Shown here piece after piece: positions 349 to 61,072 of a stretch of DNA of 64,000 nucleotides. Positions within the stretch are counted from its first letter, which is position 1, and the number at the start of each line of letters is the position of its first letter. A model generated the notes under the pieces. The model did not search any database. It was not told where the DNA came from and worked only from the letters and a program-made list of their open reading frames with translations. Position numbers and translations under genes: made by a program. The stretch spans positions 256,122,001 to 256,186,000 of the forward strand of contig OZ024741.1 of assembly GCA_964016885.1 (NCBI GenBank), read 5' to 3'. Source of the DNA: Eledone cirrhosa. Taxonomy: Eukaryota.

Positions 349-417
349 AAATAACAAATAGACGCGGTTTCAAATCTCTATGCTTTTCAAATTCATTACA
401 TTAATCTTTATTTATAC
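349..417 (+). repeat. 69-bp AT-rich conserved insert, copy 1 of 36
   Basis: AAATAACAAATAGACGCGGTTTCAAATCTCTATGCTTTTCAAATTCATTACATTAATCTTTATTTATAC (17/69 G+C) replaces the GT in TTACGA|GT|GTTTCG. Confidence 0.95.
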
Positions 418-1970
418 GTTTCGCTTTACGAGTGTTTCGTCTTACGAGTGTTTCGACATACGAGTGTTTCGGCTTACGAGTGTTTTGATTTACGAGTGTT
501 TTGACTTACGGGTGCTTCGACTTACGCGTGTTTTGACTTACGAGTGTTTCGACTTACGAGTGTTTCGACTTACGAGTGTTTCGGCTTACGAGTGTTTTGA
601 CTTACGAATGTTTTGACTTACGATTGTTTCGGCTTACGGGTGTTTCGACTTACGAATGTTTTTGCTTACGAGTGTTTCGGCTTACGAGTGTTTCGGCTTA
701 TGAGTGTTTCGAATTACGAGTGTTTTGACTTACGGGTGTTTTGACATACGAGTGTTTCGATACGATTGTTCTGACTTACGAGTGTTTCCGCTTACGAGTG
801 TTTCGGCTTACGAGTGTTTCGACTTACTAATGTTTTTACTTACGAGTGTTTCGGTGTACGAGTGTTTCGACTTAAGGATGTTTCGACTTACGAGTGTTTC
901 GACTTACGAGTGTTTCGACTTACGAGTGTTTCGACTTACGAGTGTTTTGGCTTACGAATGTTTTGACTTACGGGTGTTTCGACTTACGAGTGTTTCGGCT
1001 TATGAGTGTTTCGACTTACGGGCGTTTCGACTTACGAGTGTTTCGACTTACGAGTGTTTTGGCTTACGAATGTTTTGACTTACGGGTGTTTCGACTTACG
1101 AGTGTTTCGACTTATGAGTGTTTCGACTTACGAGTGTTTCGGCTTATGAGTGTTTCGACTTACGAGTGCTTCGGCTTACGAGTGTTTCGACTTACGAGTA
1201 TTTCGGCTTACGAGTGTTTCGACGTACGAATGTTTTGGGTTACGAGTGTTTCGGCTTATGAGTGTTTCGGCTTACGAGTGTTTCGACTTACGAGTGTTTC
1301 GGCTTACGAGTGTTTCAGTGTTTCGGCTTACGTGTGTTTCGACTTACGAGTGTTTCGACTTACGACTGTTTCGGCTTACGAGTGTTTCGGCTTACGAGTG
1401 TTTCGGCTTACGAGTGTTTTGACTTACGATTGTTTGGCTTACGAGTGTTCTGACTTACGGGTGTTCTGACTTACGGGTGTTCCGACTTACGAGTGTTTCG
1501 GCTTATGAGGGTTTCGACTTACGAGTGTTTCGACTTACGAGTGTTTCGGCTTACGAGTGTTTCGACTTACGAGTGTTCTGACTTACGAGTGTTCTGACTT
1601 ACGAGTGTTCTTACTTACGAGTGTTCCGACTTACGAGTGTTCCGACTTACGAGTGTTTCGGCTTACGAGTGTTTCGGCTTACGAGTGTTTCGACTTACGA
1701 ATGTTTCGACTTACGAGTGTTCCGACTTACGGGTGTTTCGACTTACGAGTGTTTTGGCTTACGGTGTTTCGGCTTACGAGTGTTTCGAGTTACGAGTGTT
1801 TTGACTTACACGTGTTTTGACATACGAGTGTTTCGATACGAGTGTTCTGACTTACGAGTGTTCTGACTTACGAGTGTTCTGACTTACGAGTGTTCTGACT
1901 TACGAGTGTTCCGACTTTACGAGTGTTTCGGCTCACGAGTGTTTCGACTTACGAGTGTTTCGACTTACGA

Positions 1971-2039
1971 AAATAACAAATAGACGCGGTTTCAAATCTC
2001 TATGCTTTTCAAATTCATTACATTAATCTTTATTTATAC
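1971..2039 (+). repeat. 69-bp AT-rich insert, copy 2
   Basis: Same sequence as 349-417. Confidence 0.95.
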
Positions 2040-3353
2040 GTTTCGCTTTACGAGTGTTTCGACTTACGAGTGTTTCGACATACGAGTGTTTCGGCTTACG
2101 AGTGTTTTGATTTACGAGTGTTTTGACTTACGGGTGCTTCGACTTACGCGTGTTTTGACTTACGAGTGTTTCGACTTACGAGTGTTTCGACTTACGAGTG
2201 TTTCGGCTTACGAGTGATTTGACTTACGAATGTTTTGACTTACGATTGTTTCGGCTTACGAGTGTTTCGACTTACGAGTGTTCTGATTACGAGTGTTCTG
2301 ACTTACGGGTGTTCTGACTTACGAGTGTTCCGACTTACGAGTGTTTCGGCTTATGAGTGTTTCGACTTACGAGTGCTTCGACTTACGAGTGTTTCGGCTT
2401 ACGGGTGTTTCGGCTTATGAGTGTTTCGGCTTATGAGTGTTTCGACTTACGAGTGTTTTGACTTACGGGCGTTTCGACTTACGAGTGTTTCGACTTATGA
2501 GTGTTTCGACTTACGAGTGTTTCGGCTTATGAGTGTTTCGACTTACGAGTGCTTCGGCTTACGAGTGTTTCGACTTACGAGTATTTCGGCTTACGAGTGT
2601 TTCGACGTACGAATGTTTTGGGTTACGAGTGTTTCGGCTTATGAGTGTTTCGGCTTACGAGTGTTTCGACTTACGAGTGTTTCGGCTTACGAGTGTTTCA
2701 GTGTTTCGGCTTACGTGTGTTTCGACTTACGAGTGTTTCGACTTACGACTGTTTCGGCTTACGAGTGTTTCGGCTTACGAGTGTTTCGGCTTACGAGTGT
2801 TTTGACTTACGATTGTTTGGCTTACGAGTGTTCTGACTTACGGGTGTTCTGACTTACGGGTGTTCCGACTTACGAGTGTTTCGGCTTATGAGGGTTTCGA
2901 CTTACGAGTGTTTCGACTTACGAGTGTTTCGGCTTACGAGTGTTTCGACTTACGAGTGTTCTGACTTACGAGTGTTCTGACTTACGAGTGTTCTTACTTA
3001 CGAGTGTTCCGACTTACGAGTGTTCCGACTTACGAGTGTTTCGGCTTACGAGTGTTTCGGCTTACGAGTGTTTCGACTTACGAATGTTTCGACTTACGAG
3101 TGTTCCGACTTACGGGTGTTTCGACTTACGAGTGTTTTGGCTTACGGTGTTTCGGCTTACGAGTGTTTCGAGTTACGAGTGTTTTGACTTACACGTGTTT
3201 TGACATACGAGTGTTTCGATACGAGTGTTCTGACTTACGAGTGTTCTGACTTACGAGTGTTCTGACTTACGAGTGTTCTGACTTACGAGTGTTCCGACTT
3301 TACGAGTGTTTCGGCTCACGAGTGTTTCGACTTACGAGTGTTTCGACTTACGA

Positions 3354-3422
3354 AAATAACAAATAGACGCGGTTTCAAATCTCTATGCTTTTCAAATTCA
3401 TTACATTAATCTTTATTTATAC
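3354..3422 (+). repeat. 69-bp AT-rich insert, copy 3
   Basis: Same sequence as 349-417. Confidence 0.95.
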
Positions 3423-4798
3423 GTTTCGCTTTACGAGTGTTTCGACTTACGAGTGTTTCGACATACGAGTGTTTCGGCTTACGAGTGTTTTGATTTACGA
3501 GTGTTTTGACTTACGGGTGCTTCGACTTACGCGTGTTTTGACTTACGAGTGTTTCGACTTACGAGTGTTTCGACTTACGAGTGTTTCGGCTTACGAGTGA
3601 TTTGACTTACGAATGTTTTGACTTACGATTGTTTCGGCTTACGAGTGTTTCGACTTACGAGTGTTCTGATTACGAGTGTTCTGACTTACGGGTGTTCTGA
3701 CTTACGAGTGTTCCGACTTACGAGTGTTTCGGCTTATGAGTGTTTCGACTTACGAGTGCTTCGACTTACGAGTGTTTCGGCTTACGGGTGTTTCGGCTTA
3801 TGAGTGTTTCGGCTTATGAGTGTTTCGACTTACGAGTGTTTTGACTTACGGATGTTTTGACATACGAGTGTTTCGATACGATTGTTCTGACTTACGAGTG
3901 TTTCCGCTTACGAGTGTTTCGGCTTACGAGTGTTTCGACTTACTAATGTTTTTACTTACGAGTGTTTCGGTGTACGAGTGTTTCGACTTAAGGATGTTTC
4001 GACTTACGAGTGTTTCGGCTTATGAGTGTTTCGACTTACGAGTGCTTCGGCTTACGAGTGTTTCGACTTACGAGTATTTCGGCTTACGAGTGTTTCGACG
4101 TACGAATGTTTTGGCTTACGAGTGTTTCGGCTTATGAGTGTTTCGGCTTACGAGTGTTTCGACTTACGAGTGTTTCGGCTTACGAGTGTTTCAGTGTTTC
4201 GGCTTACGTGTGTTTTGACTTACGAGTGTTTCGACTTACGACTGTTTCGGCTTACGAGTGTTTCGGCTTACGAGTGTTTCGGCTTACGAGTGTTTTGACT
4301 TACGATTGTTTGGCTTACGAGTGTTCTGACTTACGGGTGTTATGACTTACGAGTGTTCCGACTTACGAGTGTTTCGGCTTATGAGGGTTTCGACTTACGA
4401 GTGCTTCGGTTTACGAGTGTTTCGACTTACGAGTGTTTCGGCTTACGAGTGTTTCGACTTACGAGTGTTTCGACTTACGAGTGTTTTGACTTACGGTGTT
4501 TCGGCTTACGAGTGTTTCGACATACGAGTGTTTTGACGTACGGGTGTTTCGACTTACGGGTCTTTCGACTTAAGAGTGTTTCGACTTACGAGCGCTTCGA
4601 CTTACGAGTGTTTCGACTTACGAGTGTTTTGACTTACACGTGTTTTGACATACGAGTGTTTCGATACGAGTGATTCGGCTCACGATTGTTTCGACTTACG
4701 AGTGTTCTGACTTACGAGTGTTCTGACTTACGAGTGTTCCGACTTTACGAGTGTTTCGGCTCACGAGTGTTTCGGCTTACGAGTGTTTCGACTTACGA

Positions 4799-4867
4799 AA
4801 ATAACAAATAGACGCGGTTTCAAATCTCTATGCTTTTCAAATGCATTACATTAATCTTTATTTATAC
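4799..4867 (+). repeat. 69-bp AT-rich insert, copy 4
   Basis: Same sequence except T>G at 4843 (AAATGCATT). Confidence 0.95.
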
Positions 4868-5951
4868 GTTTCGCTTTACGAGTGTTTCGACTTACGAGTG
4901 TTTCGACATACGAGTGTTTCGGCTTACGAGTGTTTTGATTTACGAGTGTTTTGACTTACGGGTGCTTCGACTTACGCGTGTTTCGACTTACGAGTGTTTC
5001 GACTTACGAGTGTTTCGACTTACGAGTGTTTCGGCTTACGAGTGTTTTGACTTACGATTGTTTCAGCTTACGAGTGTTTCGACTTACGAGTGTTCTGACT
5101 ACGAGTGTTCTGATTTACGGGTGTTCTGACTTACGAGTGTTCCGACTTACGAGTGTTTCGGCTTATGAGTGTTTCGACTTACGAGTGCTTCGACTTACGA
5201 GTGTTTCGGCTTACGGGTGTTTCGACTTACGAATGTTTTTGCTTACGAGTGTTTCGGCTTACGAGTGTTTCGGCTTATGAGTGTTTCGACTTACGAGTGT
5301 TTCGACTTACGAGTGTTTCGACTTACGAGTGTTTCGGCTTACGAGTGTTTTGACTTACGATTGTTTCAGCTTACGAGTGTTTCGACTTACGAGTGTTCTG
5401 ACTACGAGTGTTCTGATTTACGGGTGTTCTGACTTACGAGTGTTCCGACTTACGAGTGTTTCGGCTTATGAGTGTTTCGACTTACGAGTGCTTCGACTTA
5501 CGAGTGTTTCGGCTTACGGGTGTTTCGACTTACGAATGTTTTTGCTTACGAGTGTTTCGGCTTACGAGTGTTTCGGCTTATGAGTGTTTCGACTTACGAG
5601 TGTTTTGACTTACGGGTGTTCTGACTTACGAGTGTTTCGGCTTACGAGTGTTTCGGCTTATGAGTGTTTCGACTTACGAGTGTTTTGACTTACGAGTGTT
5701 CCGACTTACGAGTGTTTCGGCTTACGAGTGTTTCGGCTTACGAGTGTTTCGACTTACGAATGTTTCGACTTACGAGTGTTCCGACTTACGGGTGTTTCGA
5801 CTTACGAGTGTTTTGGCTTACGGTGTTTCGGCTTACGAGTGTTTCGAGTTACGAGTGTTTTGACTTACACGTGTTTTGACATACGAGTGTTTCGACTTTA
5901 CGAGTGTTTCGGCTCACGATTGTTTCGACTTACGAGTGTTTCGACTTACGA

Positions 5952-6020
5952 AAATAACAAATAGACGCGGTTTCAAATCTCTATGCTTTTCAAATTCATT
6001 ACATTAATCTTTATTTATAC
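5952..6020 (+). repeat. 69-bp AT-rich insert, copy 5
   Basis: Same sequence as 349-417. Confidence 0.95.
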
Positions 6021-7573
6021 GTTTCGCTTTACGAGTGTTTCGACTTACGAGTGTTTCGACATACGAGTGTTTCGGCTTACGAGTGTTTTGATTTACGAGT
6101 GTTTTGACTTACGGGTGCTTCGACTTACGCGTGTTTTGACTTACGAGTGTTTCGACTTACGAGTGTTTCGACTTACGAGTGTTTCGGCTTACGAGTGTTT
6201 TGACTTACGAATGTTTTGACTTACGATTGTTTCGGCTTACGGGTGTTTCGACTTACGAATGTTTTTGCTTACGAGTGTTTCGGCTTACGAGTGTTTCGGC
6301 TTATGAGTGTTTCGAATTACGAGTGTTTTGACTTACGGGTGTTTTGACATACGAGTGTTTCGATACGATTGTTCTGACTTACGAGTGTTTCCGCTTACGA
6401 GTGTTTCGGCTTACGAGTGTTTCGACTTACTAATGTTTTTACTTACGAATGTTTCGGTGTACGAGTGTTTCGACTTAAGGATGTTTCGACTTACGAGTGT
6501 TTCGACTTACGAGTGTTTCGACTTACGAGTGTTTCGACTTACGAGTGTTTTGGCTTACGAATGTTTTGACTTACGGGTGTTTCGACTTACGAGTGTTTCG
6601 GCTTATGAGTGTTTCGACTTACGGGCGTTTCGACTTACGAGTGTTTCGACTTACGAGTGTTTTGGCTTACGAATGTTATGACTTACGGGTGTTTCGACTT
6701 ACGAGTGTTTCGACTTATGAGTGTTTCGACTTACGAGTGTTTCGGCTTATGAGTGTTTCGACTTACGAGTGCTTCGGCTTACGAGTGTTTCGACTTACGA
6801 GTATTTCGGCTTACGAGTGTTTCGACGTACGAATGTTTTGGCTTACGAGTGTTTCGGCTTATGAGTGTTTCGGCTTACGAGTGTTTCGACTTACGAGTGT
6901 TTCGGCTTACGAGTGTTTCAGTGTTTCGGCTTACGTGTGTTTCGACTTACGAGTGTTTCGACTTACGACTGTTTCGGCTTACGAGTGTTTCGGCTTACGA
7001 GTGTTTCGGCTTACGAGTGTTTTGACTTACGATTGTTTGGCTTACGAGTGTTCTGACTTACGGGTGTTCTGACTTACGGGTGTTCCGACTTACGAGTGTT
7101 TCGGCTTATGAGGGTTTCGACTTACGAGTGTTTCGACTTACGAGTGTTTCGGCTTACGAGTGTTTCGACTTACGAGTGTTCTGACTTACGAGTGTTCTGA
7201 CTTACGAGTGTTCTTACTTACGAGTGTTCCGACTTACGAGTGTTCCGACTTACGAGTGTTTCGGCTTACGAGTGTTTCGGCTTACGAGTGTTTCGACTTA
7301 CGAATGTTTCGACTTACGAGTGTTCCGACTTACGGGTGTTTCGACTTACGAGTGTTTTGGCTTACGGTGTTTCGGCTTACGAGTGTTTCGAGTTACGAGT
7401 GTTTTGACTTACACGTGTTTTGACATACGAGTGTTTCGATACAAGTGTTCTGACTTACGAGTGTTCTGACTTACGAGTGTTCTGACTTACGAGTGTTCTG
7501 ACTTACGAGTGTTCCGACTTTACGAGTGTTTCGGCCCACGAGTGTTTCGACTTACGAGTGTTTCGACTTACGA

Positions 7574-7642
7574 AAATAACAAATAGACGCGGTTTCAAAT
7601 CTCTATGCTTTTCAAATTCATTACATTAATCTTTATTTATAC
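7574..7642 (+). repeat. 69-bp AT-rich insert, copy 6
   Basis: Same sequence as 349-417. Confidence 0.95.
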
Positions 7643-9179
7643 GTTTCGCTTTACGAGTGTTTCGACTTACGAGTGTTTCGACATACGAGTGTTTCGGCTT
7701 ACGAGTGTTTTGATTTACGAGTGTTTTGACTTACGGGTGCTTCGACTTACGCGTGTTTTGACTTACGAGTGTTTCGACTTACGAGTGTTTCGACTTACGA
7801 GTGTTTCGGCTTACGAGTGATTTGACTTACGAATGTTTTGACTTACGATTGTTTCGGCTTACGAGTGTTTCGACTTACGAGTGTTCTGATTACGAGTGTT
7901 CTGACTTACGGGTGTTCTGACTTACGAGTGTTCCGACTTACGAGTGTTTCGGCTTATGAGTGTTTCGACTTACGAGTGCTTCGACTTACGAGTGTTTCGG
8001 CTTACGGGTGTTTCGGCTTATGAGTGTTTCGGCTTATGAGTGTTTCGACTTACGAGTGTTTTGACTTACGGATGTTTTGACATACGAGTGTTTCGATACG
8101 ATTGTTCTGACTTACGAGTGTTTCCGCTTACGAGTGTTTCGGCTTACGAGTGTTTCGACTTACTAATGTTTTTACTTACGAGTGTTTCGGTGTACGAGTG
8201 TTTCGACTTAAGGATGTTTCGACTTACGAGTGTTTCGGCTTATGAGTGTTTCGACTTACGAGTGCTTCGGCTTACGAGTGTTTCGACTTACGAGTATTTC
8301 GGCTTACGAGTGTTTCGACGTACGAATGTTTTGGCTTACGAGTGTTTCGGCTTATGAGTGTTTCGGCTTACGAGTGTTTCGACTTACGAGTGTTTCGGCT
8401 TACGAGTGTTTCAGTGTTTCGGCTTACGTGTGTTTCGACTTACGAGTGTTTCGACTTACGACTGTTTCGGCTTACGAGTGTTTCGGCTTACGAGTGTTTC
8501 GGCTTACGAGTGTTTTGATTTACGATTGTTTGGCTTACGAGTGTTCTGACTTACGGGTGTTATGACTTACGAGTGTTCCGACTTACGAGTGTTTCGGCTT
8601 ATGAAGGTTTCGACTTACGAGTGCTTCGGCTTACGAGTGTTTCGACTTACCAGTGTTTCGGCTTACGAGTGTTTCGACTTACGAGTGTTTCGACTTACGA
8701 GTGTTTTGACTTACGGTGTTTCGGCTTACGAGTGTTTCGACATACGAGTGTTTTGACGTACGGGTGTTTCGACTTACGGGTCTTTCGACTTAAGAGTGTT
8801 TCGACTTACGAGCGCTTCGACTTACGAGTGTTTCGACTTACGAGTGTTTCGGCGTATGAGTGTTTTGACTTACGAGTGTTTCGACTTACGAGTGTTTCGA
8901 CTTACGAGTGTTTCGAATTACGAGTGTTTCGACTTACGAGTGTTCCGACTTACGGGTGTTTTGAGTTAGGAGTGTTTTGGCTTACGGTGTTTCGACTTAC
9001 GAGTGTTTCGAGTTAAGAGTGTTTTTACTTACGAGTGTTCTGATTTACGAGTGTTCTGACTTACGAGTGTTCTGACTTACGAGTGTTCTGACTTACGAGT
9101 GTTCTGACTTACGAGTGTTCCGACTTTACGAGTGATTCGGGTCACGAGTGTTTCGGCTTACGAGTGTTTCGACTTACGA

Positions 9180-9248
9180 AAATAACAAATAGACGCGGTT
9201 TCAAATCTCTATGCTTTTCAAATTCATTACATTAATCTTTATTTATAC
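9180..9248 (+). repeat. 69-bp AT-rich insert, copy 7
   Basis: Same sequence as 349-417. Confidence 0.95.
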
Positions 9249-9995
9249 GTTTCGCTTTACGAGTGTTTCGACTTACGAGTGTTTCGACATACGAGTCTTT
9301 CGACTTACGAATGTTTTTGCTTACGGGTGTTTCGACTTACGAATGTTTTTGCTTACGAGTGTTTCGGTTTACGAGTGTTCCGACTTACGAGTGTTCCGAC
9401 TTACGAGTGTCTCGGCTTACGAGTGTTTCCGGCTTACGAGTGTTTCAACTTACGAGTGTTCTGACTTACGAGTGTTCTGATTTACGGATGTTTCGACACA
9501 CGAGTGTTTCGAATTACGAGTGTTTCGACTTACGAGTGTTTTGACTTACGGGTGTTTTGACATACGAGTGTTTCGATACGAGTGTTTCGACTTACGAGTG
9601 TTCTGACTTACGAGTGTTCTGACTTACGAGTGTTCTTACTTACGAGTGTTCCGACTTACGAGTGTTCCGACTTACGAGTGTTTCGGCATACGAGTGTTTC
9701 GGCTTACGAGTGTTTCGACTTACGAATGTTTCGACTTACGAGTGTTCCGACTTACGGGTGTTTCGACTTACGAGTGTTTTGGCTTACGGTGTTTCGGCTT
9801 ACGAGTGTTTCGAGTTACGAGTGTTTTGACTTACACGTGTTTTGACATACGAGTGTTTCGATACGAGTGTTCTGACTTACGAGTGTTCTGACTTACGAGT
9901 GTTCTGACTTACGAGTGTTCTGACTTACGAGTGTTCCGACTTTACGAGTGTTTCGGCTCACGAGTGTTTCGGCTTACGAGTGTTTCGACTTACGA

Positions 9996-10064
9996 AAATA
10001 ACAAATAGACGCGGTTTCAAATCTCTATGCTTTTCAAATTCATTACATTAATCTTTATTTATAT
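9996..10064 (+). repeat. 69-bp AT-rich insert, copy 8
   Basis: Same sequence except terminal C>T at 10064 (TATATG). Confidence 0.95.
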
Positions 10065-11712: not shown

Positions 11713-11781
11713 AAATAACAAATAGACGCGGTTTCAAATCTCTATGCTTTTCAAATTCATTACATTAATCTTTATTTATAC
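11713..11781 (+). repeat. 69-bp AT-rich insert, copy 9
   Basis: Same sequence as 349-417. Confidence 0.95.
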
Positions 11782-12528
11782 GTTTCGCTTTACGAGTGTT
11801 TCGACTTACGAGTGTTTCGACATACGAGTCTTTCGACTTACGAATGTTTTTGCTTACGGGTGTTTCGACTTACGAATGTTTTTGCTTACGAGTGTTTCGG
11901 TTTACGAGTGTTCCGACTTACGAGTGTTCCGACTTACGAGTGTCTCGGCTTACGAGTGTTTCCGGCTTACGAGTGTTTCAACTTACGAGTGTTCTGACTT
12001 ACGAGTGTTCTGATTTACGGATGTTTCGACACACGAGTGTTTCGAATTACGAGTGTTTCGACTTACGAGTGTTTTGACTTACGGGTGTTTTGACATACGA
12101 GTGTTTCGATACGAGTGTTTCGACTTACGAGTGTTCTGACTTACGAGTGTTCTGACTTACGAGTGTTCTTACTTACGAGTGTTCCGACTTACGAGTGTTC
12201 CGACTTACGAGTGTTTCGGCATACGAGTGTTTCGGCTTACGAGTGTTTCGACTTACGAATGTTTCGACTTACGAGTGTTCCGACTTACGGGTGTTTCGAC
12301 TTACGAGTGTTTTGGCTTACGGTGTTTCGGCTTACGAGTGTTTCGAGTTACGAGTGTTTTGACTTACACGTGTTTTGACATACGAGTGTTTCGATACGAG
12401 TGTTCTGACTTACGAGTGTTCTGACTTACGAGTGTTCTGACTTACGAGTGTTCTGACTTACGAGTGTTCCGACTTTACGAGTGTTTCGGCTCACGAGTGT
12501 TTCGGCTTACGAGTGTTTCGACTTACGA

Positions 12529-12597
12529 AAATAACAAATAGACGCGGTTTCAAATCTCTATGCTTTTCAAATTCATTACATTAATCTTTATTTATAT
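12529..12597 (+). repeat. 69-bp AT-rich insert, copy 10
   Basis: Terminal C>T at 12597, as in copy 8. Confidence 0.95.
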
Positions 12598-48435: not shown

Positions 48436-48504
48436 AAATAACAAATAGACGCGGTTTCAAATCTCTATGCTTTTCAAATTCATTACATTAATCTTTATTT
48501 ATAC
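48436..48504 (+). repeat. 69-bp AT-rich insert, copy 30
   Basis: Same sequence; upstream flank variant TTACAAG, as in copy 21. Confidence 0.95.
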
Positions 48505-51500
48505 GTTTCGCTTTACGAGTGTTTCGACTTACGAGTGTTTCGACATACGAGTGTTTCGGCTTACGAGTGTTTTGATTTACGAGTGTTTTGACTTACGGGT
48601 GCTTCGACTTACGCGTGTTTCGACTTACGAGTGTTTCGACTTATGAGTGTTTCGACTCACGAGTGTTTCGGCTTACGAGTGTTTTGACTTACGAATGTTT
48701 TGACTTACGATTGTTTCGGCTTACGAGTGTTTCGACTTACGAGTGTTCTGACTACGAGTGTTCTGACTTACGGGTGTTCTGACTTACGAGTGTTCCGACT
48801 TACGAGTGTTTCGGCTTATGAGTGTTTCGACTTACGAGTGTTTCGACTTACGAGTGTTTCGACTTACGAGTGTTTCGACTTACGAGTGTTTTGCCTTACG
48901 AATGTTTTGACTTACGGGTGTTTCGAATTACGAGTGTTTCGGCTTATGAGTGTTTCGACTTACGGGCGTTTCGACTTACGGGTGTTTCGACTTACGAGTG
49001 TTTTGGCTTACGAATGTTTTGACTTACGGGTGTTTCGAATTACGAGTGTTTCGGCTTATGAGTGTTTCGACTTACGGGCGTTTCGACTTACGGGTGTTTC
49101 GACTTACGAGTGTTTTGGCTTACGAGTGTTTCGACTTACTAATGTTTTTACTTACCAGTGTTTCGGTGTACGAATGTTTAGACTTAAGGATGTTTCGACT
49201 TACGAGTGTTTCGACTTACGAGTGTTTCGGCTTACGTGAGTTTCGACTTCAGAGTGTTCTGATTTACGAGTGTTCTGACTTGCGGGTGTTTCGGCTTATG
49301 AGTGTTTCGACTTACGAGTGTTTCGGCTTACGAGTGTTTCGACTTATGGGTGTTTCGACTTACGAGTGTTTTTACTTACGGTGTTTCGGCTTACGAGTGT
49401 TTCGACATACGAGTGTTTTGACTTACGGGTGTTTCGGCTTACGAGTGTTTCGACTGACGAGTGTTTCGGCTTACGAGTGTTTCGACTTACTAATGTTTTT
49501 ACTTACGAGTGTTTCGGCGTACGAGAGTTTTGACTTACGAGTGTTTCGACTTACGAGTGATTTGATTTACGAATGTTTTGACTTACGGGTGTTTCGGCTT
49601 ATGAGTGTTTCGACTTACGAGTCTTTCGGCTTACGAGTGTTTCGACTTACTAATGTTTTTACTTACGAGTGTTTCGGCGTACGAGTGTTTCGACTTACGA
49701 GTGTTTCGACTTACGGATGTTTTGACTTATGGGTGTTTCGGCTTACGAGTGTTTCGACTTACGAGTGTTTTGACTTACGGGTGTTTCGACTTACGAGTAT
49801 TTTTGGCTTACGAGTGTTTCGACTTACGAGTGTTTTGACTTACGAGTGTTCTGATTTACGGATGTTTCGACATACGAATGTTTCGACTTACGAGTGTTTC
49901 GACTTATGAGTGTTTCGACTTACGAGTGTTTCGGCTTACGAGTGTTTTGACTTACGAGTGTTTTGACTTACGGTGTTTCGGCTTACGAGTGTTTCGACTT
50001 ACGATTGTTTTGACTTACGGGTGTTTTGACATACGAGTGTTTCGATACGAGTGTTCTGACTTACGAGTGTTCTGACTTACGAGTGTTTTGACTTACGAGT
50101 GTTCTGACTTACGAGTGTTCCGACTTACGAGTGTTCCGACTTACGAGTGTTTCGGCTTACGAGTGTTTCCGGCTTACGAGTGTTTCGACTTCCGAGTGTT
50201 TTGACTTACGGTGTTTCGGCTTACGAGTGATTCGACTTACGAGTGTTTTGACTTACGGGTGATTTGACTTACGGGTGTTGTGAATTACGAGTGTTCCGAT
50301 TTACGAGTGTTTTGACTTACGGTGTTTCGGCTTACAAGTGATTCGACTTACGAATGTTTTGACTTACGGGTGTTTCGGCTTGCGAGTGTTTCGACTTACG
50401 AGTGTTTCGGCTTATGGGTGTTTCGACTTACTAATGTTTTTACTTACGAGTGTTTCGGTGTACGAGTGTTTTGACTTACGAGTGTTTCGACTTACGAGTG
50501 TTTCGACTTACGAGTGTTTCGGCTTACGTGAGTTTCGACTTAAGAGTGTTCTGATTTACGAGTGTTCTGACTTGCGGGTGTTCTGATTTACGAGTGTTCC
50601 GATTTACGAGTGTTTCGGCTTATTAGTGTTTCGACTTACGAGTGTTTCGGCTTACGAGTGTTTCGACTTATGGGTGTTTTGACTTACGAGTGTTTTTAAT
50701 TACGGTGTTTCCGCTTACGAGTGTTTCGACATACGAGTGTTTTGACTTACGGGTGTTTCGACTACGAGTGTTTTGACTTATGAATGTTTTGACTTACGGG
50801 TGTTTCGGCTTACGAGTGTTTCGACTTACGAGGGTTTCGGCTTACGAGTGTTTCGACTTACTAATGTTCTTACTTACGAGTGTTTCGCCGAACGAGAGTT
50901 TTGACTTACGAGTGTTTCGACTTACGAGTGTTTCGACTTACGAGTGTTTCGACTTACGGGTGTTTTGACTTACGGTTGTTTCGGCTTACGAGTGTTTTGA
51001 CTTACGAGTGTTTTGACTTACGTGTTTTGACTTACGAGTGTTCTGATTTACGGATGTTTCGACATACGAGTGTTTCGACTTACGAGTGTTTCGACTTATG
51101 AGTGTTTCGACTTACGAGTGTTTCGGCTTATGAGTGTTTCGTCTTACGAGTGCTTCGGCTTACGAGTGTTTCGACTTACGAGTATTTCGGCTTACGAGTG
51201 TTTCGACGTACGAATGTTTTGGCTTACGAGTGTTTCGGCTTATGAGTGTTTCGGCTTACGAGTGTTTCGACTTACGAATGTTTCGGCTTACGAGTGTTTC
51301 AGTGTTTCGGCTTACGTGTGTTTCGACTTACGAGTGTTTCGACTTACGACTGTTTTGGCTTACGAGTGTTTCGGCTTACGAGTGTTTCGGCTTACGAGTG
51401 TTTTGACTTACGAGTGTTTTGAGTTACGATTGTTTGGCTTACGAGTGTTCTGACTTACGGGTGTTCTGACTTACGAATGTTCCGACTTACGAGTGTTTCG

Positions 51501-53243
51501 GCTTATGAGGGTTTCGCCTTACGAGTGCTTCGGCTTACGAGTGTTTCGACTTACGAGTGTTTCGGCTTACGAGTGTTTCGACTTACGAGTGTTTCGACTT
51601 ACGAGTGTTTTGACTTACGGTGTTTCGGCTTACGAGTGTTTCGACATACGAGTGTTTTGACGTACGGGTGTTTCGACTTACGGGTCTTTCGACTTAAGAG
51701 TGTTTCGACTTACGAGCGCTTCGACTTACGAGTGTTTCGACTTACGAGTGTTTCGGCGTATGAGTGTTTTGACTTACGAGTGTTTCGACTTACGAGTGTT
51801 TCGACTTACGAGTGTTTCGAATTACGAGTGTTTCGACTTACGAGTGTTTTGACTTACGAGTGTTTTGACTTCGGTGTTTCTGCTTACGAGTGTTTCGACT
51901 TACGAGTGTTATGACTTACGGGTGTTTTCACATACGAGTGTTTCGACTTACGAGTGTTTTGACTTACGGGTGTTTTGACATACGAGTGTTTCGATACGAG
52001 TGTTCTGACTTACGAGTGTTCTGACTTACGAGTGTTCTGACTTACGAGTGTTTCGACATACGAGTGTTTTGACTTACGGGTGTTTCGACTTACGAGTGTT
52101 TTCACTTACGAATGTTTTGACTTACGGGTGTTTCGGCTTACGAGTGTTTCGACTTACGAGTGTTTCGGCTTACGAAGGTTTCGACTTACTAATATTTTTA
52201 CTTACGAGTGTTTCGGCGTACGAGAGTTTTGACTTACGAGTGTTTCGACTTACGAGTGTTTCGACTTACGAGTATTTTGACTTACGAATGTTTTAACTTA
52301 CGGGTGTTTCGGCTTACGAGTGTTTTGACTTACGAGTCTTTCGGCTTACGAGTGTTTCGACTTACTAATGTTTTTACTTACGAGTGTTTCGGCGTACGAG
52401 TGTTTCGACTTCCGAGTGTTTCGACTTACGGGTGTTTTGACTTACGGGTGTATCGGCTTACGAGTGTTTTGACTTACGAGTGTTTTGACTTAAGGGTGTT
52501 TCGACGTACGAGGATTTTTGGCTTACGAGTGTTTCGACTTACGAGTGTTTTGACTTACGAGTGTTCTGATTTACGGATGTTTCGACATACGAGTGTTTCG
52601 ACTTACGAGTGTTTCGACTTATGAGTGTTTCGACTTACGAGTGTTTCGACTTACGAGTGTTTCGGCTTGTGATTGTTTCGACTTACGAGTGTTTTGACTT
52701 ACGGTGTTTCAGCTTACGAGTGTTTCGACTTACGAGTGTTTTGACTTACGGGTGTTTTGACATACGAGTGTTTCGATACGAGTGTTCTGACTTACGAGTG
52801 TTCTGACTTACGAGTGTTTTGACTTACGAGTGTTCTGACTTACGAGTGTTCCGACTTACGAGTGTTCCGACTTACGAGTGTTTCGGATTACGAGTGTTTT
52901 GACTGAAGGGTGTTTCGACTTACGAGTGTTTCGATACGAGTGTTTCGACTTACGAGTGTTTCGGCTTACGAGTGTTTCGACTTACGAGTGTTTCGACTTA
53001 CGAGTGTTCCGACTTACGGGTGTTTCGAGTTAGGAGTGTTTTGGCTTACGGTGTTTCGACTTACGAGTGTTTCGAGTTAAGAGTGTTTTTACTTACGAGT
53101 GTTCTGATTTACGAGTGTTCTGACTTACGAGTGTTCTGACTTACGAGTGTTCTGACTTACGAGTGTTCTGACTTACGAGTGTTCCGACTTTACGAGTGAT
53201 TCGGGTCACGAGTGTTTCGGCTTACGAGTGTTTCGACTTACGA

Positions 53244-53312
53244 AAATAACAAATAGACGCGGTTTCAAATCTCTATGCTTTTCAAATTCATTACATTAAT
53301 CTTTATTTATAC
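53244..53312 (+). repeat. 69-bp AT-rich insert, copy 31
   Basis: Same sequence as 349-417. Confidence 0.95.
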
Positions 53313-54059
53313 GTTTCGCTTTACGAGTGTTTCGACTTACGAGTGTTTCGACATACGAGTCTTTCGACTTACGAATATTTTTGCTTACGGGTGTTTCGAC
53401 TTACGAATGTTTTTGCTTACGAGTGTTTCGGTTTACGAGTGTTCCGACTTACGAGTGTTCCGACTTACGAGTGTCTCGGCTTACGAGTGTTTCCGGCTTA
53501 CGAGTGTTTCAACTTACGAGTGTTCTGACTTACGAGTGTTCTGATTTACGGATGTTTCGACACACGAGTGTTTCGAATTACGAGTGTTTCGACTTACGAG
53601 TGTTTTGACTTACGGGTGTTTTGACATACGAGTGTTTCGATACGAGTGTTTCGACTTACGAGTGTTCTGACTTACGAGTGTTCTGACTTACGAGTGTTCT
53701 TACTTACGAGTGTTCCGACTTACGAGTGTTCCGACTTACGAGTGTTTCGGCATACGAGTGTTTCGGCTTACGAGTGTTTCGACTTACGAATGTTTCGACT
53801 TACGAGTGTTCCGACTTACGGGTGTTTCGACTTACGAGTGTTTTGGCTTACGGTGTTTCGGCTTACGAGTGTTTCGAGTTACGAGTGTTTTGACTTACAC
53901 GTGTTTTGACATACGAGTGTTTCGATACGAGTGTTCTGACTTACGAGTGTTCTGACTTACGAGTGTTCTGACTTACGAGTGTTCTGACTTACGAGTGTTC
54001 CGACTTTACGAGTGTTTCGGCTCACGAGTGTTTCGGCTTACGAGTGTTTCGACTTACGA

Positions 54060-54128
54060 AAATAACAAATAGACGCGGTTTCAAATCTCTATGCTTTTCA
54101 AATTCATTACATTAATCTTTATTTATAC
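54060..54128 (+). repeat. 69-bp AT-rich insert, copy 32
   Basis: Same sequence as 349-417. Confidence 0.95.
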
Positions 54129-55840
54129 GTTTCGCTTTACGAGTGTTTCGACTTACGAGTGTTTCGACATACGAGTGTTTCGGCTTACGAGTGTTTTGAT
54201 TTACGAGTGTTTTGACTTACGGGTGCTTCGACTTACGCGTGTTTCGACTTACGAGTGTTTCGACTTACGAGTGTTTCGACTTACGAGTGTTTCGGCTTAC
54301 GAGTGTTTTGACTTACGAAGTTTTGACTTACGATTGTTTCAGCTTACGAGTGTTTCGACTTACGAGTGTTCTGACTACGAGTGTTCTGATTTACGGGTGT
54401 TCTGACTTACGAGTGTTCCGACTTACGAGTGTTTCGGCTTATGAGTGTTTCGACTTACGAGTGCTTCGACTTACGAGTGTTTCGGCTTACGGGTGTTTCG
54501 ACTTACGAATGTTTTTGCTTACGAGTGTTTCGGCTTACGAGTGTTTCGGCTTATGAGTGTTTCGACTTACGAGTGTTTTGACTTACGGGTGTTTTGACAT
54601 ACGAGTGTTTCGATACGATTGTTCTGACTTACGAGTGTTTCCGCTTACGAGTGTTTCGGCTTACGAGTATTTCGACTTACTAATGTTTTTACTTACGAGT
54701 GTTTCGGTGTACGAGTGTTTCGACTTAAGGATGTTTCGACTTACGAGTGTTTCGACTTACGAGTGTTTCGACTTACGAGTGTTTTGGCTTACGAATGTTT
54801 TGACTTACGGGTGTTTCGACTTACGAGTGTTTCGACTTATGAGTGTTTCGACTTACGAGTGTTTCGGCTTATGAGTGTTTCGACTTACGAGTGCTTCGGC
54901 TTACGAGTGTTTCGACTTACGAGTATTTCGGCTTAAGAGTGTTTCGACGTACGAATGTTTTGGCTTACGAGTGTTTCGGCTTATGAGTGTTTCGGCTTAC
55001 GAGTGTTTCGACTTACGAGTGTTTCGGCTTACGAGTGTTTCAGTGTTTCGGCTTACGTGTGTTTCGACTTACGAGTGTTTCGACTTACGACTGTTTCGGC
55101 TTACGAGTGTTTCGGCTTACGAGTGTTTCGGCTTACGAGTGTTTTGACTTACGATTGTTTGGCTTACGAGTGTTCTGACTTACGGGTGTTCTGACTTACG
55201 GGTGTTCCGACTTACGAGTGTTTCGGCTTATGAGGGTTTCGACTTACGATTGTTTCGACTTACGAGTGTTTCGGCTTACGAGTGTTTCGACTTACGAGTG
55301 TTCTGACTTACGACTGTTTCGGCTTACGAGTGTTTCGGCTTACGAGTGTTTCGGCTTACGAGTGTTTTGACTTACGATTGTTTGGCTTACGAGTGTTCTG
55401 ACTTACGGGTGTTCTGACTTACGGGTGTTCCGACTTACGAGTGTTACGGCTTATGAGGGTTTCGACTTACGAGTGTTTCGACTTACGAGTGTTTCGGCTT
55501 ACGAGTGTTTCGACTTACGAGTGTTCTGACTTACGAGTGTTCTGACTTACGAGTGTTCTTACTTACGAGTGTTCCGACTTACGAGTGTTCCGACTTACGA
55601 GTGTTTCGGCTTACGAGTGTTTCGGCTTACGAGTGTTTCGACTTACGAATGTTTCGACTTACGAGTGTTCCGACTTACGGGTGTTTCGACTTACGAGTGT
55701 TTTGGCTTACGGTGTTTCGGCTTACGAGTGTTTCGAGTTACGAGTGTTTTGACTTACACGTGTTTTGACATACGAGTGTTTCGACTTTACGAGTGTTTCG
55801 GCTCACGATTGTTTCGAATTACGAGTGTTTCGACTTACGA

Positions 55841-55909
55841 AAATAACAAATAGACGCGGTTTCAAATCTCTATGCTTTTCAAATTCATTACATTAATCTT
55901 TATTTATAC
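55841..55909 (+). repeat. 69-bp AT-rich insert, copy 33
   Basis: Same sequence; flank TTTACGATG. Confidence 0.95.
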
Positions 55910-57398
55910 GTTTCGCTTTACGATGTTTCGACTTACGAGTGTTTCGACATACGAGTGTTTCGGCTTACGAGTGTTTTGATTTACGAGTGTTTTGACTTAC
56001 GGGTGCTTCGACTTACGCGTGTTTTGACTTACGAGTGTTTCGACTTACGAGTGTTTCGACTTACGAGTGTTTCGGCTTACGAGTGTTTTGACTTACGAAT
56101 GTTTTGACTTACGATTGTTTCGGCTTACGGGTGTTTCGACTTACGAATGTTTTTGCTTACGAGTGTTTCGGCTTACGAGTGTTTCGGCTTATGAGTGTTT
56201 CGAATTACGAGTGTTTTGACTTACGGGTGTTTTGACATACGAGTGTTTCGATACGATTGTTCTGACTTACGAGTGTTTCCGCTTACGAGTGTTTCGGCTT
56301 ACGAGTGTTTCGACTTACTAATGTTTTTACTTACGAGTGTTTCGGTGTACGAGTGTTTCGACTTAAGGATGTTTCGACTTACGAGTGTTTCGACTTACGA
56401 GTGTTTCGACTTACGAGTGTTTCGACTTACGAGTGTTTTGGCTTACGAATGTTTTGACTTACGGGTGTTTCGACTTACGAGTATTTCGGCTTAAGAGTGT
56501 TTCGACGTACGAATGTTTTGGCTTACGAGTGTTTCGGCTTATGAGTGTTTCGGCTTACGAGTGTTTCGACTTACGAGTGTTTCGGCTTACGAGTGTTTCA
56601 GTGTTTCGGCTTACGTGTGTTTCGACTTACGAGTGTTTCGACTTACGACTGTTTCGGCTTACGAGTGTTTCGGCTTACGAGTGTTTCGGCTTACGAGTGC
56701 TTTGACTTACGATTGTTTGGCTTACGAGTGTTCTGACTTACGGGTGTTCTGACTTACGGGTGTTCCGACTTACGAGTGTTTCGGCTTATGAGGGTTTCGA
56801 CTTACGAGTGTTTCGACTTACGAGTGTTTCGGCTTACGAGTGTTTCGACTTACGAGTGTTCTGACTTACGACTGTTTCGGCTTACGAGTGTTTCGGCTTA
56901 CGAGTGTTTCGGCTTACGAGTGTTTTGACTTACGATTGTTTGGCTTACGAGTGTTCTGACTTACGGGTGTTCTGACTTACGGGTGTTCCGACTTACGAGT
57001 GTTACGGCTTATGAGGGTTTCGACTTACGAGTGTTTCGACTTACGAGTGTTTCGGCTTACGAGTGTTTCGACTTACGAGTGTTCTGACTTACGAGTGTTC
57101 TGACTTACGAGTGTTCTTACTTACGAGTGTTCCGACTTACGAGTGTTCCGACTTACGAGTGTTTCGGCTTACGAGTGTTTCGGCTTACGAGTGTTTCGAC
57201 TTACGAATGTTTCGACTTACGAGTGTTCCGACTTACGGGTGTTTCGACTTACGAGTGTTTTGGCTTACGGTGTTTCGGCTTACGAGTGTTTCGAGTTACG
57301 AGTGTTTTGACTTACACGTGTTTTGACATACGAGTGTTTCGACTTTACGAGTGTTTCGGCTCACGATTGTTTCGAATTACGAGTGTTTCGACTTACGA

Positions 57399-57467
57399 AA
57401 ATAACAAATAGACGCGGTTTCAAATCTCTATGCTTTTCAAATTCATTACATTAATCTTTATTTATAC
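57399..57467 (+). repeat. 69-bp AT-rich insert, copy 34
   Basis: Same sequence; flank TTTACGATG. Confidence 0.95.
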
Positions 57468-59159
57468 GTTTCGCTTTACGATGTTTCGACTTACGAGTGT
57501 TTCGACATACGAGTGTTTCGGCTTACGAGTGTTTTGATTTACGAGTGTTTTGACTTACGGGTGCTTCGACTTACGCGTGTTTTGACTTACGAGTGTTTCG
57601 ACTTACGAGTGTTTCGACTTACGAGTGTTTCGGCTTACGAGTGTTTTGACTTACGAATGTTTTGACTTACGATTGTTTCGGCTTACGGGTGTTTCGACTT
57701 ACGAATGTTTTTGCTTACGAGTGTTTCGGCTTATGAGTGTTTCGACTTACGAGTGTTTTGACTTACGGGTGTTTTGACATACGAGTGTTTCGATACGATT
57801 GTTCTGACTTACGAGTGTTTCCGCTTACGAGTGTTTCGGCTTACGAGTGTTTCGACTTACTAATGTTTTTACTTACGAGTGTTTCGGTGTACGAGTGTTT
57901 CGACTTAAGGATGTTTCGACTTACGATTGTTTCGGCTTACGAGTGTTCTGACTACGAGTGTTCTGACTTACGGGTGTTCTGACTTACGAGTGTTCCGACT
58001 TACGAGTGTTTCGGCTTATGAGTGTTTCGACTTACGAGTGCTTCGACTTACGAGTGTTTCGGCTTACGGGTGTTTCGACTTACGAATGTTTTTGCTTACG
58101 AGTGTTTCGGCTTATGAGTGTTTCGACTTACGAGTGTTTTGACTTACGGGTGTTTTGACATACGAGTGTTTCGACTTACGAGTATTTCGGCTTACGAGTG
58201 TTTCGACGTACGAATGTTTTGGCTTACGAGTGTTTCGGCTTATGAGTGTTTCGGCTTACGAGTGTTTCGACTTACGAGTGTTTCGGCTTACGAGTGTTTC
58301 AGTTTTCGGCTTACGAGTGTTTCGACTTACGAGTGTTTCGACTTACGACTGTTTCCGCTTACGAGTGTTTCGGCTTACGAGTGTTTCGGCTTACGAGTGT
58401 TTTGACTTACGATTGTTTGGCTTACGAGTGTTCTGACTTACGGGTGTTTTGACTTACGATTGTTTGGCTTACGAGTGTTCTGACTTACGGGTGTTCTGAC
58501 TTACGAGTGTTCCGACTTACGAGTGTTTCGGCTTATGAGGGTTTCGACTTACGAGTGCTTCGGCTTACGAGTGTTTCGACTTACGAGTGTTTCGGCTTAC
58601 GAGTGTTTCGACTTACGAGTGTTTCGACTTACGAGTGTTTTGACTTACGGTGTTTCGGCTTACGAGTGTTTCGACATACGAGTGTTTTGACGTACGGGTG
58701 TTTCGACTTACGGGTCTTTCGACTTACGAGTGTTTCGACTTACGAGCGCTTCGACTTACGAGTGTTTCGACTTACGAGTGTTTCGGCGTATGAGTGTTTT
58801 GACTTACGAGTGTTTCGACTTACGAGTGTTTCGAATTACGAGTGTTTCGACTTACGAGTGTTTTGACTTACGAGTGTTTTGACTTACGGTGTTTGTGCTT
58901 ACGAGTGTTTCGACTTACGAGTGTTATGACTTACGGGTGTTTTGACATACGAGTGTTTCGACTTACGAGTGTTTTGACTTACGGGTGTTTTGACATACGA
59001 GTGTTTCGATACGAGTGTTCTGACTTACGAGTGTTCTGACTTACGAGTGTTCTGACTTACGAGTGTTCTGACTTACGAGTGTTCTGACTTACGAGTGTTC
59101 CGACTTTACGAGTGTTTCGGCTCACGAGTGTTTCGGCTTACAAGTGTTTCGACTTACGA

Positions 59160-59228
59160 AAATAACAAATAGACGCGGTTTCAAATCTCTATGCTTTTCA
59201 AATTCATTACATTAATCTTTATTTATAC
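59160..59228 (+). repeat. 69-bp AT-rich insert, copy 35
   Basis: Same sequence; upstream flank variant TTACAAG. Confidence 0.95.
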
Positions 59229-61003
59229 GTTTCGCTTTACGAGTGTTTCGACTTACGAGTGTTTCGACATACGAGTGTTTCGGCTTACGAGTGTTTTGAT
59301 TTACGAGTGTTTTGACTTACGGGTGCTTCGACTTACGCGTGTTTCGACTTACGAGTGTTTCGACTTATGAGTGTTTCGACTCACGAGTGTTTCGGCTTAC
59401 GAGTGTTTTGACTTACGAATGTTTTGACTTACGATTGTTTCGGCTTACGAGTGTTTCGACTTACGAGTGTTCTGACTACGAGTGTTCTGACTTACGGGTG
59501 TTCTGACTTACGAGTGTTCCGACTTACGAGTGTTTCGGCTTATGAGTGTTTCGACTTACGAGTGCTTCGATTTACGAGTGTTTCGGCTTACGGGTGTTTC
59601 GACTTACGAATGTTTTTGCTTACGAGTGTTTCGGCTTACGAGTGTTTCGGCTTATGAGTGTTTCGACTTACGAGTGTTTTGACTTACGGGTGTTTTGACA
59701 TACGAGTGTTTCGATACGATTGTTCTGACTTACGAGTGTTTCCGCTTACGAGTGTTTCGGCTTACGAGTGTTTCGACTTACTAATGTTTTTACTTGCGAG
59801 TGTTTCGGTGTACGAGTGTTTCGACTTAAGGATGTTTCGAATTACGAGTGTTTCGACTTACGAGTGTTTCGACTTACGAGTGTTTCGACTTACGAGTGTT
59901 TTGGCTTACGAATGTTTTGACTTACGGGTGTTTCGACTTACGAGTGTTTCGGCTTATGAGTGTTTCGACTTACGGGCGTTTCGACTTACGGGTGTTTCGA
60001 CTTACGAGTGTTTTGGCTTACGAATGTTTTGACTTACGGGTGTTTCGACTTACGAGTGTTTCGACTTATGAGTGTTTCGACTTACGAGTGTTTCGGCTTA
60101 TGAGTGTTTCGACTTACGAGTGCTTCGGCTTACGAGTGTTTCGACTTACGAGTATTTCGGCTTACGAGTGTTTCGTCGTACGAATGTTTTGGCTTACGAG
60201 TGTTTCGGCTTATGAGTGTTTCGGCTTACGAGTGTTTCGACTTACGAGTGTTTCGGCTTACGAGTGTTTCAGTGTTTCGGCTTACGTGTGTTTCGACTTA
60301 CGATTGTTTGGCTTACGAGTGTTCTGACTTACGAGTATTCTTACTTACGAGTGTTCCGACTTACGAGTGTTTCGGCTTACGAGTGTTTTGACTTACGATT
60401 GTTTGGCTTACGAGTGTTCTGACTTACGGGTGTTCTGACTTACGAGTGTTCCGACTTACGAGTGTTTCGGCTTATGAGGGTTTCGACTTACGAGTGCTTC
60501 GGCTTACGAGTGTTTCGACTTACGAGTGTTTCGGCTTACGAGTGTTTCGACTTACGAGTGTTCTGACTTACGAGTGTTCTGACTTACGAGTATTCTTACT
60601 TACGAGTGTTCCGACTTACGAGTGTTTCGGCTTACGAGTGTTTCGGCTTATGAGTGTTTCGACTTACGAGTGCTTCGGTTTACGAGTGTTTCGGCTTACG
60701 AGTGTTTTGACTTAAGGGTGTTTCGACTTACGAGTGTTTCGATACGAGTGTTTCGACTTACGAGTGTTTCGGCTTACGAGTGTTTCGACTTACGAGTGTT
60801 TCGACTTACGAGTGTTCCGATTTACGGGTGTTTCGACTTACGAGTGTTTTGGCTTACGGTGTTTCGACTTACGAGTGTTCTGACTTACGAGTGTTCTGAC
60901 TTACGAGTGTTCTGACTTACGAGTGTTCTGACTTACGAGTGTTCCGACTTTACGAGTGTTTCGGCTCACGAGTGTTTCGGCTTACGAGTGTTTCGACTTA
61001 CGA

Positions 61004-61072
61004 AAATAACAAATAGACGCGGTTTCAAATCTCTATGCTTTTCAAATTCATTACATTAATCTTTATTTATAC
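61004..61072 (+). repeat. 69-bp AT-rich insert, copy 36
   Basis: Same sequence as 349-417. Confidence 0.95.

What the first reader, a model, noticed from the sequence alone, without database searches (positions are those of the whole stretch)
349..61072. Composite satellite: a near-invariant 69-bp AT-rich insert punctuates a variable 16-bp array 36 times
Seen: 36 copies of one 69-bp segment (about 75% AT, versus 44% GC for the monomer). Inside the segment I see only two substitutions: T>G at 4843, and a terminal C>T shared by 10064, 12597 and 20604. The monomer tracts between copies differ greatly in length and variant order. Start-to-start spacings: 1622,1383,1445,1153,1622,1606,816,1717,816,1877,1622,1447,1668,577,816,1814,1622,1447,1668,1889,1844,6881,816,1781,1558,1495,1765,1558,1762,4808,816,1781,1558,1761,1844. 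Inference: a constant module with variable repeat spacers could be a functional landmark (protein-binding or nucleosome-depleted site, transcription start or end, origin, or centromere/telomere organiser). It could also be a passive passenger of recent amplification.
Basis: partly seen in the sequence, partly recalled or inferred. Interest (0 to 1): 0.72.

Follow-up and report, generated by a model that had tools for sequence, protein, structure and literature searches.

The report
Helitron fragment riding in its satellite
The 69-base insert is a piece from near the start of a small jumping gene whose inner 16-base repeat likely grew into a satellite of millions of bases, and because the insert mutates as fast as the repeats beside it, it is likely a passenger rather than a functional landmark.

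Summary
The 'functional landmark' reading is not supported. The insert is nt 61-64 plus 73-137 of a 514-bp dispersed Helitron-like element (5' TC, 3' hairpin and CTAG; 156 exact junction copies), in which it lies directly before 2-4 copies of the same 16-mer. An allele with an 8-bp deletion supplies the insert letter for letter and heads four arrays. One, on C4, is a complete 2,644-bp intermediate: 5' part, three inserts, 3' end. Private mutations are equally frequent in insert and monomers (1/2,484 vs 21/46,689 bp, p=1). Across arrays only 46 of 96 position-sampled copies are identical. At C2:260.5 Mb the element's 3' half rides along in the same way. Verdict: a neutral passenger in a Helitron-born satellite, a known route. 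The scan already noted this satellite's Helitron origin in other windows of this genome. Centromere function is untested.

The parts
1..64000 (+). 16-bp satellite array, an interior part of a multi-Mb block on contig C2 (window = G000:C2:256,122,001-256,186,000); the monomer is the internal minisatellite of a 514-bp Helitron-like element
349..417 (+). insert 1 = Helitron-like element nt 61-64 + 73-137 (8-bp-deletion allele)
418..431 (+). 14-bp variant first monomer (element nt 138-151); follows every insert, identical in 34 of 36
1971..2039 (+). insert 2
3354..3422 (+). insert 3
4799..4867 (+). insert 4 (T>G at 4843)
5952..6020 (+). insert 5
7574..7642 (+). insert 6
9180..9248 (+). insert 7
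9996..10064 (+). insert 8 (terminal C>T)
11713..11781 (+). insert 9
12529..12597 (+). insert 10 (terminal C>T)
14406..14474 (+). insert 11
16028..16096 (+). insert 12
17475..17543 (+). insert 13
19143..19211 (+). insert 14
19720..19788 (+). insert 15
20536..20604 (+). insert 16 (terminal C>T)
22350..22418 (+). insert 17
23972..24040 (+). insert 18
25419..25487 (+). insert 19
27087..27155 (+). insert 20
28976..29044 (+). insert 21
30820..30888 (+). insert 22
30889..37700 (+). insert-free tract of 428 monomers
37701..37769 (+). insert 23
38517..38585 (+). insert 24
40298..40366 (+). insert 25
41856..41924 (+). insert 26
43351..43419 (+). insert 27
45116..45184 (+). insert 28
46674..46742 (+). 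insert 29
48436..48504 (+). insert 30
48505..53243 (+). insert-free tract of 298 monomers
53244..53312 (+). insert 31
54060..54128 (+). insert 32
55841..55909 (+). insert 33
57399..57467 (+). insert 34
59160..59228 (+). insert 35
61004..61072 (+). insert 36
14316..19494 (+). higher-order block duplicated at offset 7,944 with 0 mismatches in 5,179 bp
35479..42190 (+). higher-order block duplicated at offset 15,543 with 4 mismatches in 6,712 bp

Best explanation
The insert is a fragment of the 5' region of a 514-bp non-autonomous Helitron-like transposon, and it is likely a neutral passenger that was copied along as that element's internal 16-bp repeat expanded into a satellite. Shown: the insert sits just upstream of 2-4 monomers in dispersed copies of the element; an 8-bp-deletion allele matches it exactly; arrays begin at the element's 5' part and some end at its 3' end. 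Inferred steps: (1) the internal repeat lengthened in one copy carrying the deletion; (2) one internal tandem duplication joined a monomer end to the A-run at element nt 60-61 (1 base of overlap), creating the fixed monomer-insert junction; (3) unequal crossover, slippage and segmental duplication amplified the unit. The 16-periodic tracts can recombine out of register and so change length and order; the non-repetitive insert cannot, so it looks constant although it mutates at the same per-base rate.
For: Origin: 20 of 20 dispersed hits fetched are the same element, 5' TC at -64 to -68 from the insert, CTAG end found in 17 of 20; 156 exact copies of the element-type junction against 1,979 of the satellite-type junction. 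Founder allele at 4 places, each heading an array (C2:254.735, 257.768, 262.043 Mb; C4:114.054 Mb). The C4 copy spans 2,644 bp from the 5' part through three inserts to hairpin and CTAG; the C2:240.96 Mb array also ends in the element's 3' half. Neutrality: private mutations 1/2,484 bp in inserts vs 21/46,689 bp in monomers, Fisher p=1.0; three 69-bp pure-monomer frames are identical in 29/29, 27/27 and 21/21 colinear copies. 169 of 181 sampled copies: variants per target base 0.478 vs 0.486, singletons 0.232 vs 0.257. Position-chosen probes: 46 of 96 identical, 24 of 69 positions vary, 1.2% per base vs 0.74% and 1.6% for the two adjoining monomers. Two insert substitutions each occur in 28 of 63 copies of one sub-array. 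4 of 31 probes (6-10 kb) hold no insert. Mirror case: an 801-bp passenger (3' half plus flank) is identical in 3 of 3 units at C2:260.5 Mb.
Against: No chromatin, protein-binding or RNA data were available, so function without sequence constraint (for example from AT content alone) is not excluded. The tests have limited power against weak selection and say nothing about selection on insert density. The frames were picked as the best frame per landmark; other landmarks were more variable (pi 0.004-0.028 vs 0.003 for the insert). The duplication mechanism is inferred from one junction. The three C2 array heads and the C4 head lack the terminal TC. No autonomous partner with matching ends was found among 7 RepHel loci examined.
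Confidence: 0.88

Rival explanations
1. The insert began as a passenger but now works as a chromatin landmark (nucleosome-poor site, protein-binding site, or transcription start or end) in a centromeric or pericentromeric block.
For: 75% AT in a 43% GC array; one AATAAA and one TATAAA on the minus strand of each copy; about 2,000 copies in a multi-Mb block of alternating satellites on C2.
Against: No sequence constraint; insert-free stretches of 6-10 kb; no CENP-B box or heat-shock-element match (0 hits); no fold (z +1.5); those hexamers are expected in AT-rich DNA and are already present in the parent element.
Confidence: 0.07
2. The units are a direct product of Helitron rolling-circle replication (several 5' parts, one 3' end), as proposed for plant centromeric Helitron arrays, and whole arrays then moved between chromosomes as Helitrons.
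For: The C4 copy has three 5'-region segments and one 3' end, the layout that the review PMC12628747 (passages) attributes to Xiong et al. 2016. The same junction and founder allele occur on C2 and C4, the junction also on C1, and the C4 head has a different upstream flank from the C2 heads.
Against: Internal units lack the first 59-60 nt including the TC nick site, so the junction is not a Helitron end; the three C2 heads share one upstream flank (segmental duplication); the C1 array shows no element end at either edge. This rival concerns the amplification route only and is compatible with the passenger reading.
Confidence: 0.2
3. The insert is a small independent mobile element or small-RNA gene that inserted repeatedly into, or is spaced by, the satellite.
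For: The constant-module and variable-spacer layout resembles small-RNA gene arrays (recalled, no call).
Against: All 36 copies share both junctions, so there was one event; the right junction is the parent element's native sequence; no Rfam match at E<=1 in window 1-2,500; no structure.
Confidence: 0.01

Closest known systems
DINE-TR1 / 154TR of Drosophila virilis (PMC6922343, passages; original Dias et al. 2015 not read)
   Same: A tandem repeat internal to a Helitron-superfamily element that also forms long heterochromatic arrays.
   Different: 154-bp monomer in a DINE/Helentron-type element; here a 16-bp monomer in a TC...CTAG element, and a 5' flank fragment is carried in each higher-order unit.
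Cg_HINE elements and Cg170/HindIII satellite of the Pacific oyster (PMC7492417: abstract, outline, Discussion part 1 of 2); 'intermediate' arrays with element parts on one side (PMC12628747, passages)
   Same: Central repeats of non-autonomous rolling-circle elements linked to classical satellite; fixed array orientation relative to the flanks; arrays with element ends on one side only.
   Different: HINEs have subterminal inverted repeats and T-rich targets and 140-180-bp monomers, mostly up to 5 copies; this element has no subTIR and its arrays reach megabases.
Tandem arrays of truncated Helitrons in plant centromeres (Xiong, Dooner and Du 2016, seen only as described in PMC12628747)
   Same: Several 5'-region segments with a single 3' end.
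   Different: Here the repeated segment lacks the 5' terminus and most of each unit is minisatellite.
Heli2Xen minisatellite-filled Helitrons of Xenopus (PMC12001565, passages)
   Same: Non-autonomous Helitrons made largely of internal minisatellite arrays.
   Different: 166-bp unit, 2-7 repeats per tandem array, autonomous partner known; no Mb expansion reported in the passages seen.

Membership tests
Canonical non-autonomous Helitron (parent element; definition from PMC4067079 passages) | 5' end TC | tested here: met
   20 of 20 dispersed copies start TC at -64 to -68 from the insert. The four array-heading copies have lost it.
Canonical non-autonomous Helitron (parent element) | 3' end CTRR | tested here: met
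   CTAG end in 17 of 20; not found by my pattern in 3; also at the C4 and C2:240.96 Mb array ends.
Canonical non-autonomous Helitron (parent element) | 16-20-nt palindrome about 11 bp before the 3' end | tested here: inconclusive
   A strong hairpin is present (17-bp stem, 3-nt loop, -17.7 kcal/mol), but it is longer than the canon and runs into the terminal CTAG; hence 'Helitron-like'.
Canonical non-autonomous Helitron (parent element) | Insertion between A and T without target duplication | tested here: inconclusive
   T follows 17 of 17 3' ends. A precedes 11 of 11 outer TC starts of a related 5' end found upstream. The element's own TC is preceded by A in 6, G in 13 (one shared upstream join) and T in 1 of 20. 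No empty site was examined.
Canonical non-autonomous Helitron (parent element) | Autonomous Rep/Helicase partner with matching ends | tested here: inconclusive
   PF14214 matches are abundant (150 scored of 3,704 candidates); none of 7 long-ORF loci examined carries this element's ends, though several have TC...CTAG ends of their own.
Helentron / HINE / DINE-1 | Subterminal inverted repeats of 11-15 bp | tested here: not met
   No inverted match of 7 bp or more between the first 80 and last 120 nt of the element.
Helentron / HINE / DINE-1 | Insertion in TT, T runs at both ends | tested here: not met
   Flanks listed show A or G before TC, and TC after CTAG.
Satellite DNA with higher-order structure, derived from a transposon's internal repeat | Long tandem array whose monomer matches a TE-internal repeat, with element ends at array edges | tested here: met
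Centromeric satellite | CENP-A/CenH3 occupancy | not testable with these tools
   No chromatin data.
Centromeric satellite | Large array on every chromosome | tested here: inconclusive
   Arrays seen on C2 (Mb), C1 (about 97 kb) and C4 (2.6 kb) only. Pattern listings stop at 100 places; 27 of 27 copies of one variant class are on C2 but cluster by descent.
Centromeric satellite | CENP-B box (motif recalled, mammalian) | tested here: not met
   0 matches on either strand of the window.
Small-RNA gene array | Repeated module matches an RNA family or folds stably | tested here: not met
   0 Rfam hits at E<=1 in window 1-2,500; z +1.47 and +1.51.

The most novel reading that the evidence does not exclude
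The C2 block is a young, Helitron-born centromere or pericentromere: a single 0.5-kb transposon copy grew into megabases of 16-bp satellite, moved between chromosomes as an array-filled Helitron, and its AT-rich 5' fragment now phases chromatin every 1-2 kb without needing an exact sequence.
Probability: 0.07. Interest if true: 0.65.

Novelty: new member of a known kind. Interest (0 to 1): 0.24.

Why it matters
It removes a tempting false lead: a constant module in a variable satellite needs no selection, because a non-repetitive piece cannot recombine out of register. It is also a clean textbook series in one genome: a 514-bp element with 2-4 repeats, a 2.6-kb copy with three inserts and its 3' end, a small array of a few kb, an array of about 97 kb, and a multi-Mb block, traceable to one allele by an 8-bp deletion. 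That is useful to satellite-evolution specialists but confirms a published route (Helitron internal repeats to satellite). It would matter more only if the block proved centromeric.

Tried and rejected
Sequence runs: no RNA holder listed, which is no evidence on expression. Other organisms' runs: near-identical monomers at under 0.1% of the depth of run X1; X6 and X7 also hold the insert, X4 and X5 show a hole there. This may be carry-over, and holes prove nothing, so no cross-species claim is made. Depth in X1 (insert 125-246 thousand vs 4-23 thousand on the element's 3' half) hints at more copies than assembled, but the tool says depth is no copy number. Mapping arrays to other chromosomes by a rare variant was weak because the 27 hits cluster by descent. 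The count of all mutated copies makes the insert look more variable than its flanks (p=0.013), but shared descent inflates it, so it is not used. Autonomous partner: none among 7 loci. CENP-B box, heat-shock element, Rfam and folding: all negative. Paper searches: an 11-letter monomer motif gave 2 unrelated papers; cephalopod plus Helitron plus satellite gave 3 unrelated papers; some searches gave the precedents cited. These six searches found no description of this satellite, but the library lacks most subscription journals and no supplement was read. Dfam and Repbase were not available.
Full report
Observation. Parsing into monomers gives 3,879 units of 195 types; tracts hold 32-428 monomers and are mosaics of shared ordered blocks. 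Multi-kb stretches are duplicated almost perfectly (5,179 bp with 0 mismatches, 6,712 bp with 4), so the local array is very recently amplified.

Genomic setting. The window is G000:C2:256,122,001-256,186,000 in a 3.0-Gb, 1,796-contig genome. Probes show the 16-mer satellite from 254.735 Mb to beyond 262.06 Mb, alternating with a 39-bp satellite, a 6-bp repeat and non-satellite stretches, with a reversed part near 258.9-260.0 Mb. Smaller arrays lie at C1:279.30-279.39 Mb, C2:240.96 Mb and C4:114.05 Mb. The satellite-type junction occurs 1,979 times exactly.

Origin of the insert. A 29-bp core of the insert has 1,592 exact matches, many of them solitary. I fetched 20 of the solitary places on C1. 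All 20 are one element: TC start 64-68 bp upstream of the insert, then the insert, then 2-4 copies of the same monomer (measured in 18 of 20), then about 310 bp ending in a 17-bp-stem hairpin and CTAG (found in 17 of 20); the consensus of 16 is 514 bp. Its own junction occurs 156 times exactly, about equally on both strands. T follows 17 of 17 3' ends. No subterminal inverted repeat was found. By the definition in PMC4067079 (passages) the ends are those of a canonical Helitron and not of a Helentron/HINE; the hairpin is longer than the canon and no empty site or matching autonomous partner was found, so I call it Helitron-like.

The founder allele and intermediates. Dispersed copies match insert positions 5-69 (element nt 73-137). 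The first four bases are explained by an allele lacking element nt 65-72. That allele occurs at exactly 4 places, each at the head of an array: three on C2 with one shared upstream flank, and one on C4 with another. The satellite junction is a monomer end joined to this allele's A-run with one base of overlap (sequence; the duplication event is inferred). The C4 copy is a whole intermediate of 2,644 bp: 5' part, three inserts with monomer tracts, 3' half, hairpin and CTAG. The C2:240.96 Mb array also ends in the 3' half. The C1 array shows no element end at its edges.

Is the insert conserved? In the window, monomer types seen once occur 21 times in 46,689 bp of the 33 regular tracts (the two edge tracts and the two long tracts were left out; 34 in all 61,516 bp), against 1 in 2,484 bp of insert: expected 1.1, Fisher p=1.0. 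Three 69-bp pure-monomer frames are identical in 29/29, 27/27 and 21/21 colinear copies; these were best frames, and nine other landmarks were as variable as or more variable than the insert. Across 8 array regions 105 of 181 copies equal the window consensus, although 27 of the loci were picked by BLAST for perfect identity; in the 169 copies with colinear flanks (12 dropped), variants per target base are 0.478 in the insert and 0.486 in the flanks, after alleles common in the array are excluded. In 31 position-chosen probes, 46 of 96 usable copies (98 found) are identical, 24 of 69 positions vary, and divergence is 1.2% per base against 0.74% and 1.6% for the adjoining monomers; 4 probes have no insert. 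Two substitutions each occur in 28 of 63 copies of the reversed sub-array. At C2:260.5 Mb the element's 3' half plus flank, 801 bp, is identical in 3 of 3 units between monomer tracts of 2,205 and 2,029 bp: the same layout with a different passenger.

How it works. Inferred: the monomer tracts change length and order by out-of-register exchange and slippage, which a non-repetitive segment cannot undergo, while point mutation hits both alike and recent block duplication keeps local copies identical. No Rfam match, fold, CENP-B box or heat-shock element was found. Chromatin or RNA function was not testable; a role that needs only AT-richness remains possible (about 0.07).

Comparison with what is known. 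Satellites from Helitron/Helentron internal repeats are published for Drosophila DINE-TR1/154TR (PMC6922343, passages), oyster Cg_HINE/Cg170 (PMC7492417, abstract and Discussion part 1) and Xenopus Heli2Xen (PMC12001565, passages). The review PMC12628747 (passages) calls this a common route and describes arrays with several 5' parts and one 3' end. Six paper searches found no account of this satellite; supplements were not read. Earlier agents of this scan reached the same Helitron origin for this satellite from other windows (unchecked notes, read after my own analysis).

Verdict. A real feature; a new member of a known kind; a likely neutral passenger (0.88); interest 0.24.

Noticed in passing
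L126 (G000:C2:260,496,001-260,506,000), units near 2532, 5362, 8192: Mirror composite satellite: the element's 3' half plus the start of another Helitron-like element (801 bp, identical in 3 copies) repeats between 16-mer tracts with a 2,830-bp period.
   Followed up: partly
L031-L050, 3' flanks: Most 3' CTAG ends are followed directly by the TC start of another Helitron-like family, and many 5' ends sit inside composite stacks; the element may target other Helitrons' starts.
   Followed up: partly
L065, L070, L075, L076, L087 (G000:C2:255.15-258.76 Mb): A second satellite of 36-39 bp, rich in GTT triplets, forms large blocks that alternate with the 16-mer satellite.
   Followed up: no
L057 left part (G000:C1:279,295,001-279,296,700): The C1 array abuts a different satellite of about 25-27 bp units without any gap.
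   Followed up: no
G000:C2:254.73, 257.77 and 262.04 Mb (L071-L073): The array head and at least 500 bp of upstream flank occur three times at high identity, so the block grew partly by large segmental duplications.
   Followed up: partly
L110-L111 (G000:C2:315.52-315.53 Mb): A Helitron with a 1,718-codon open frame over PF14214 and apparent TC...CTAG ends about 6.7 kb apart; a candidate intact autonomous element, with ends unlike this family's.
   Followed up: no
C20:3.5-5.2 Mb, C27:13.0-15.5 Mb, C19, C16: Near-identical Helitron Rep domains recur about every 100-130 kb, suggesting very large tandem or segmental duplications.
   Followed up: no
L035, L039, L042, L046: A tRNA-like SINE is inserted in or beside several copies of the element; it resembles SINEs of octopod cephalopods (recalled, not tested by any search).
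   Followed up: no
window, monomer positions: The commonest monomer variants are C>T at one CpG (30%) and A>G next to it (30%), with little matching G>A, so the pattern is not simple CpG decay.
   Followed up: no
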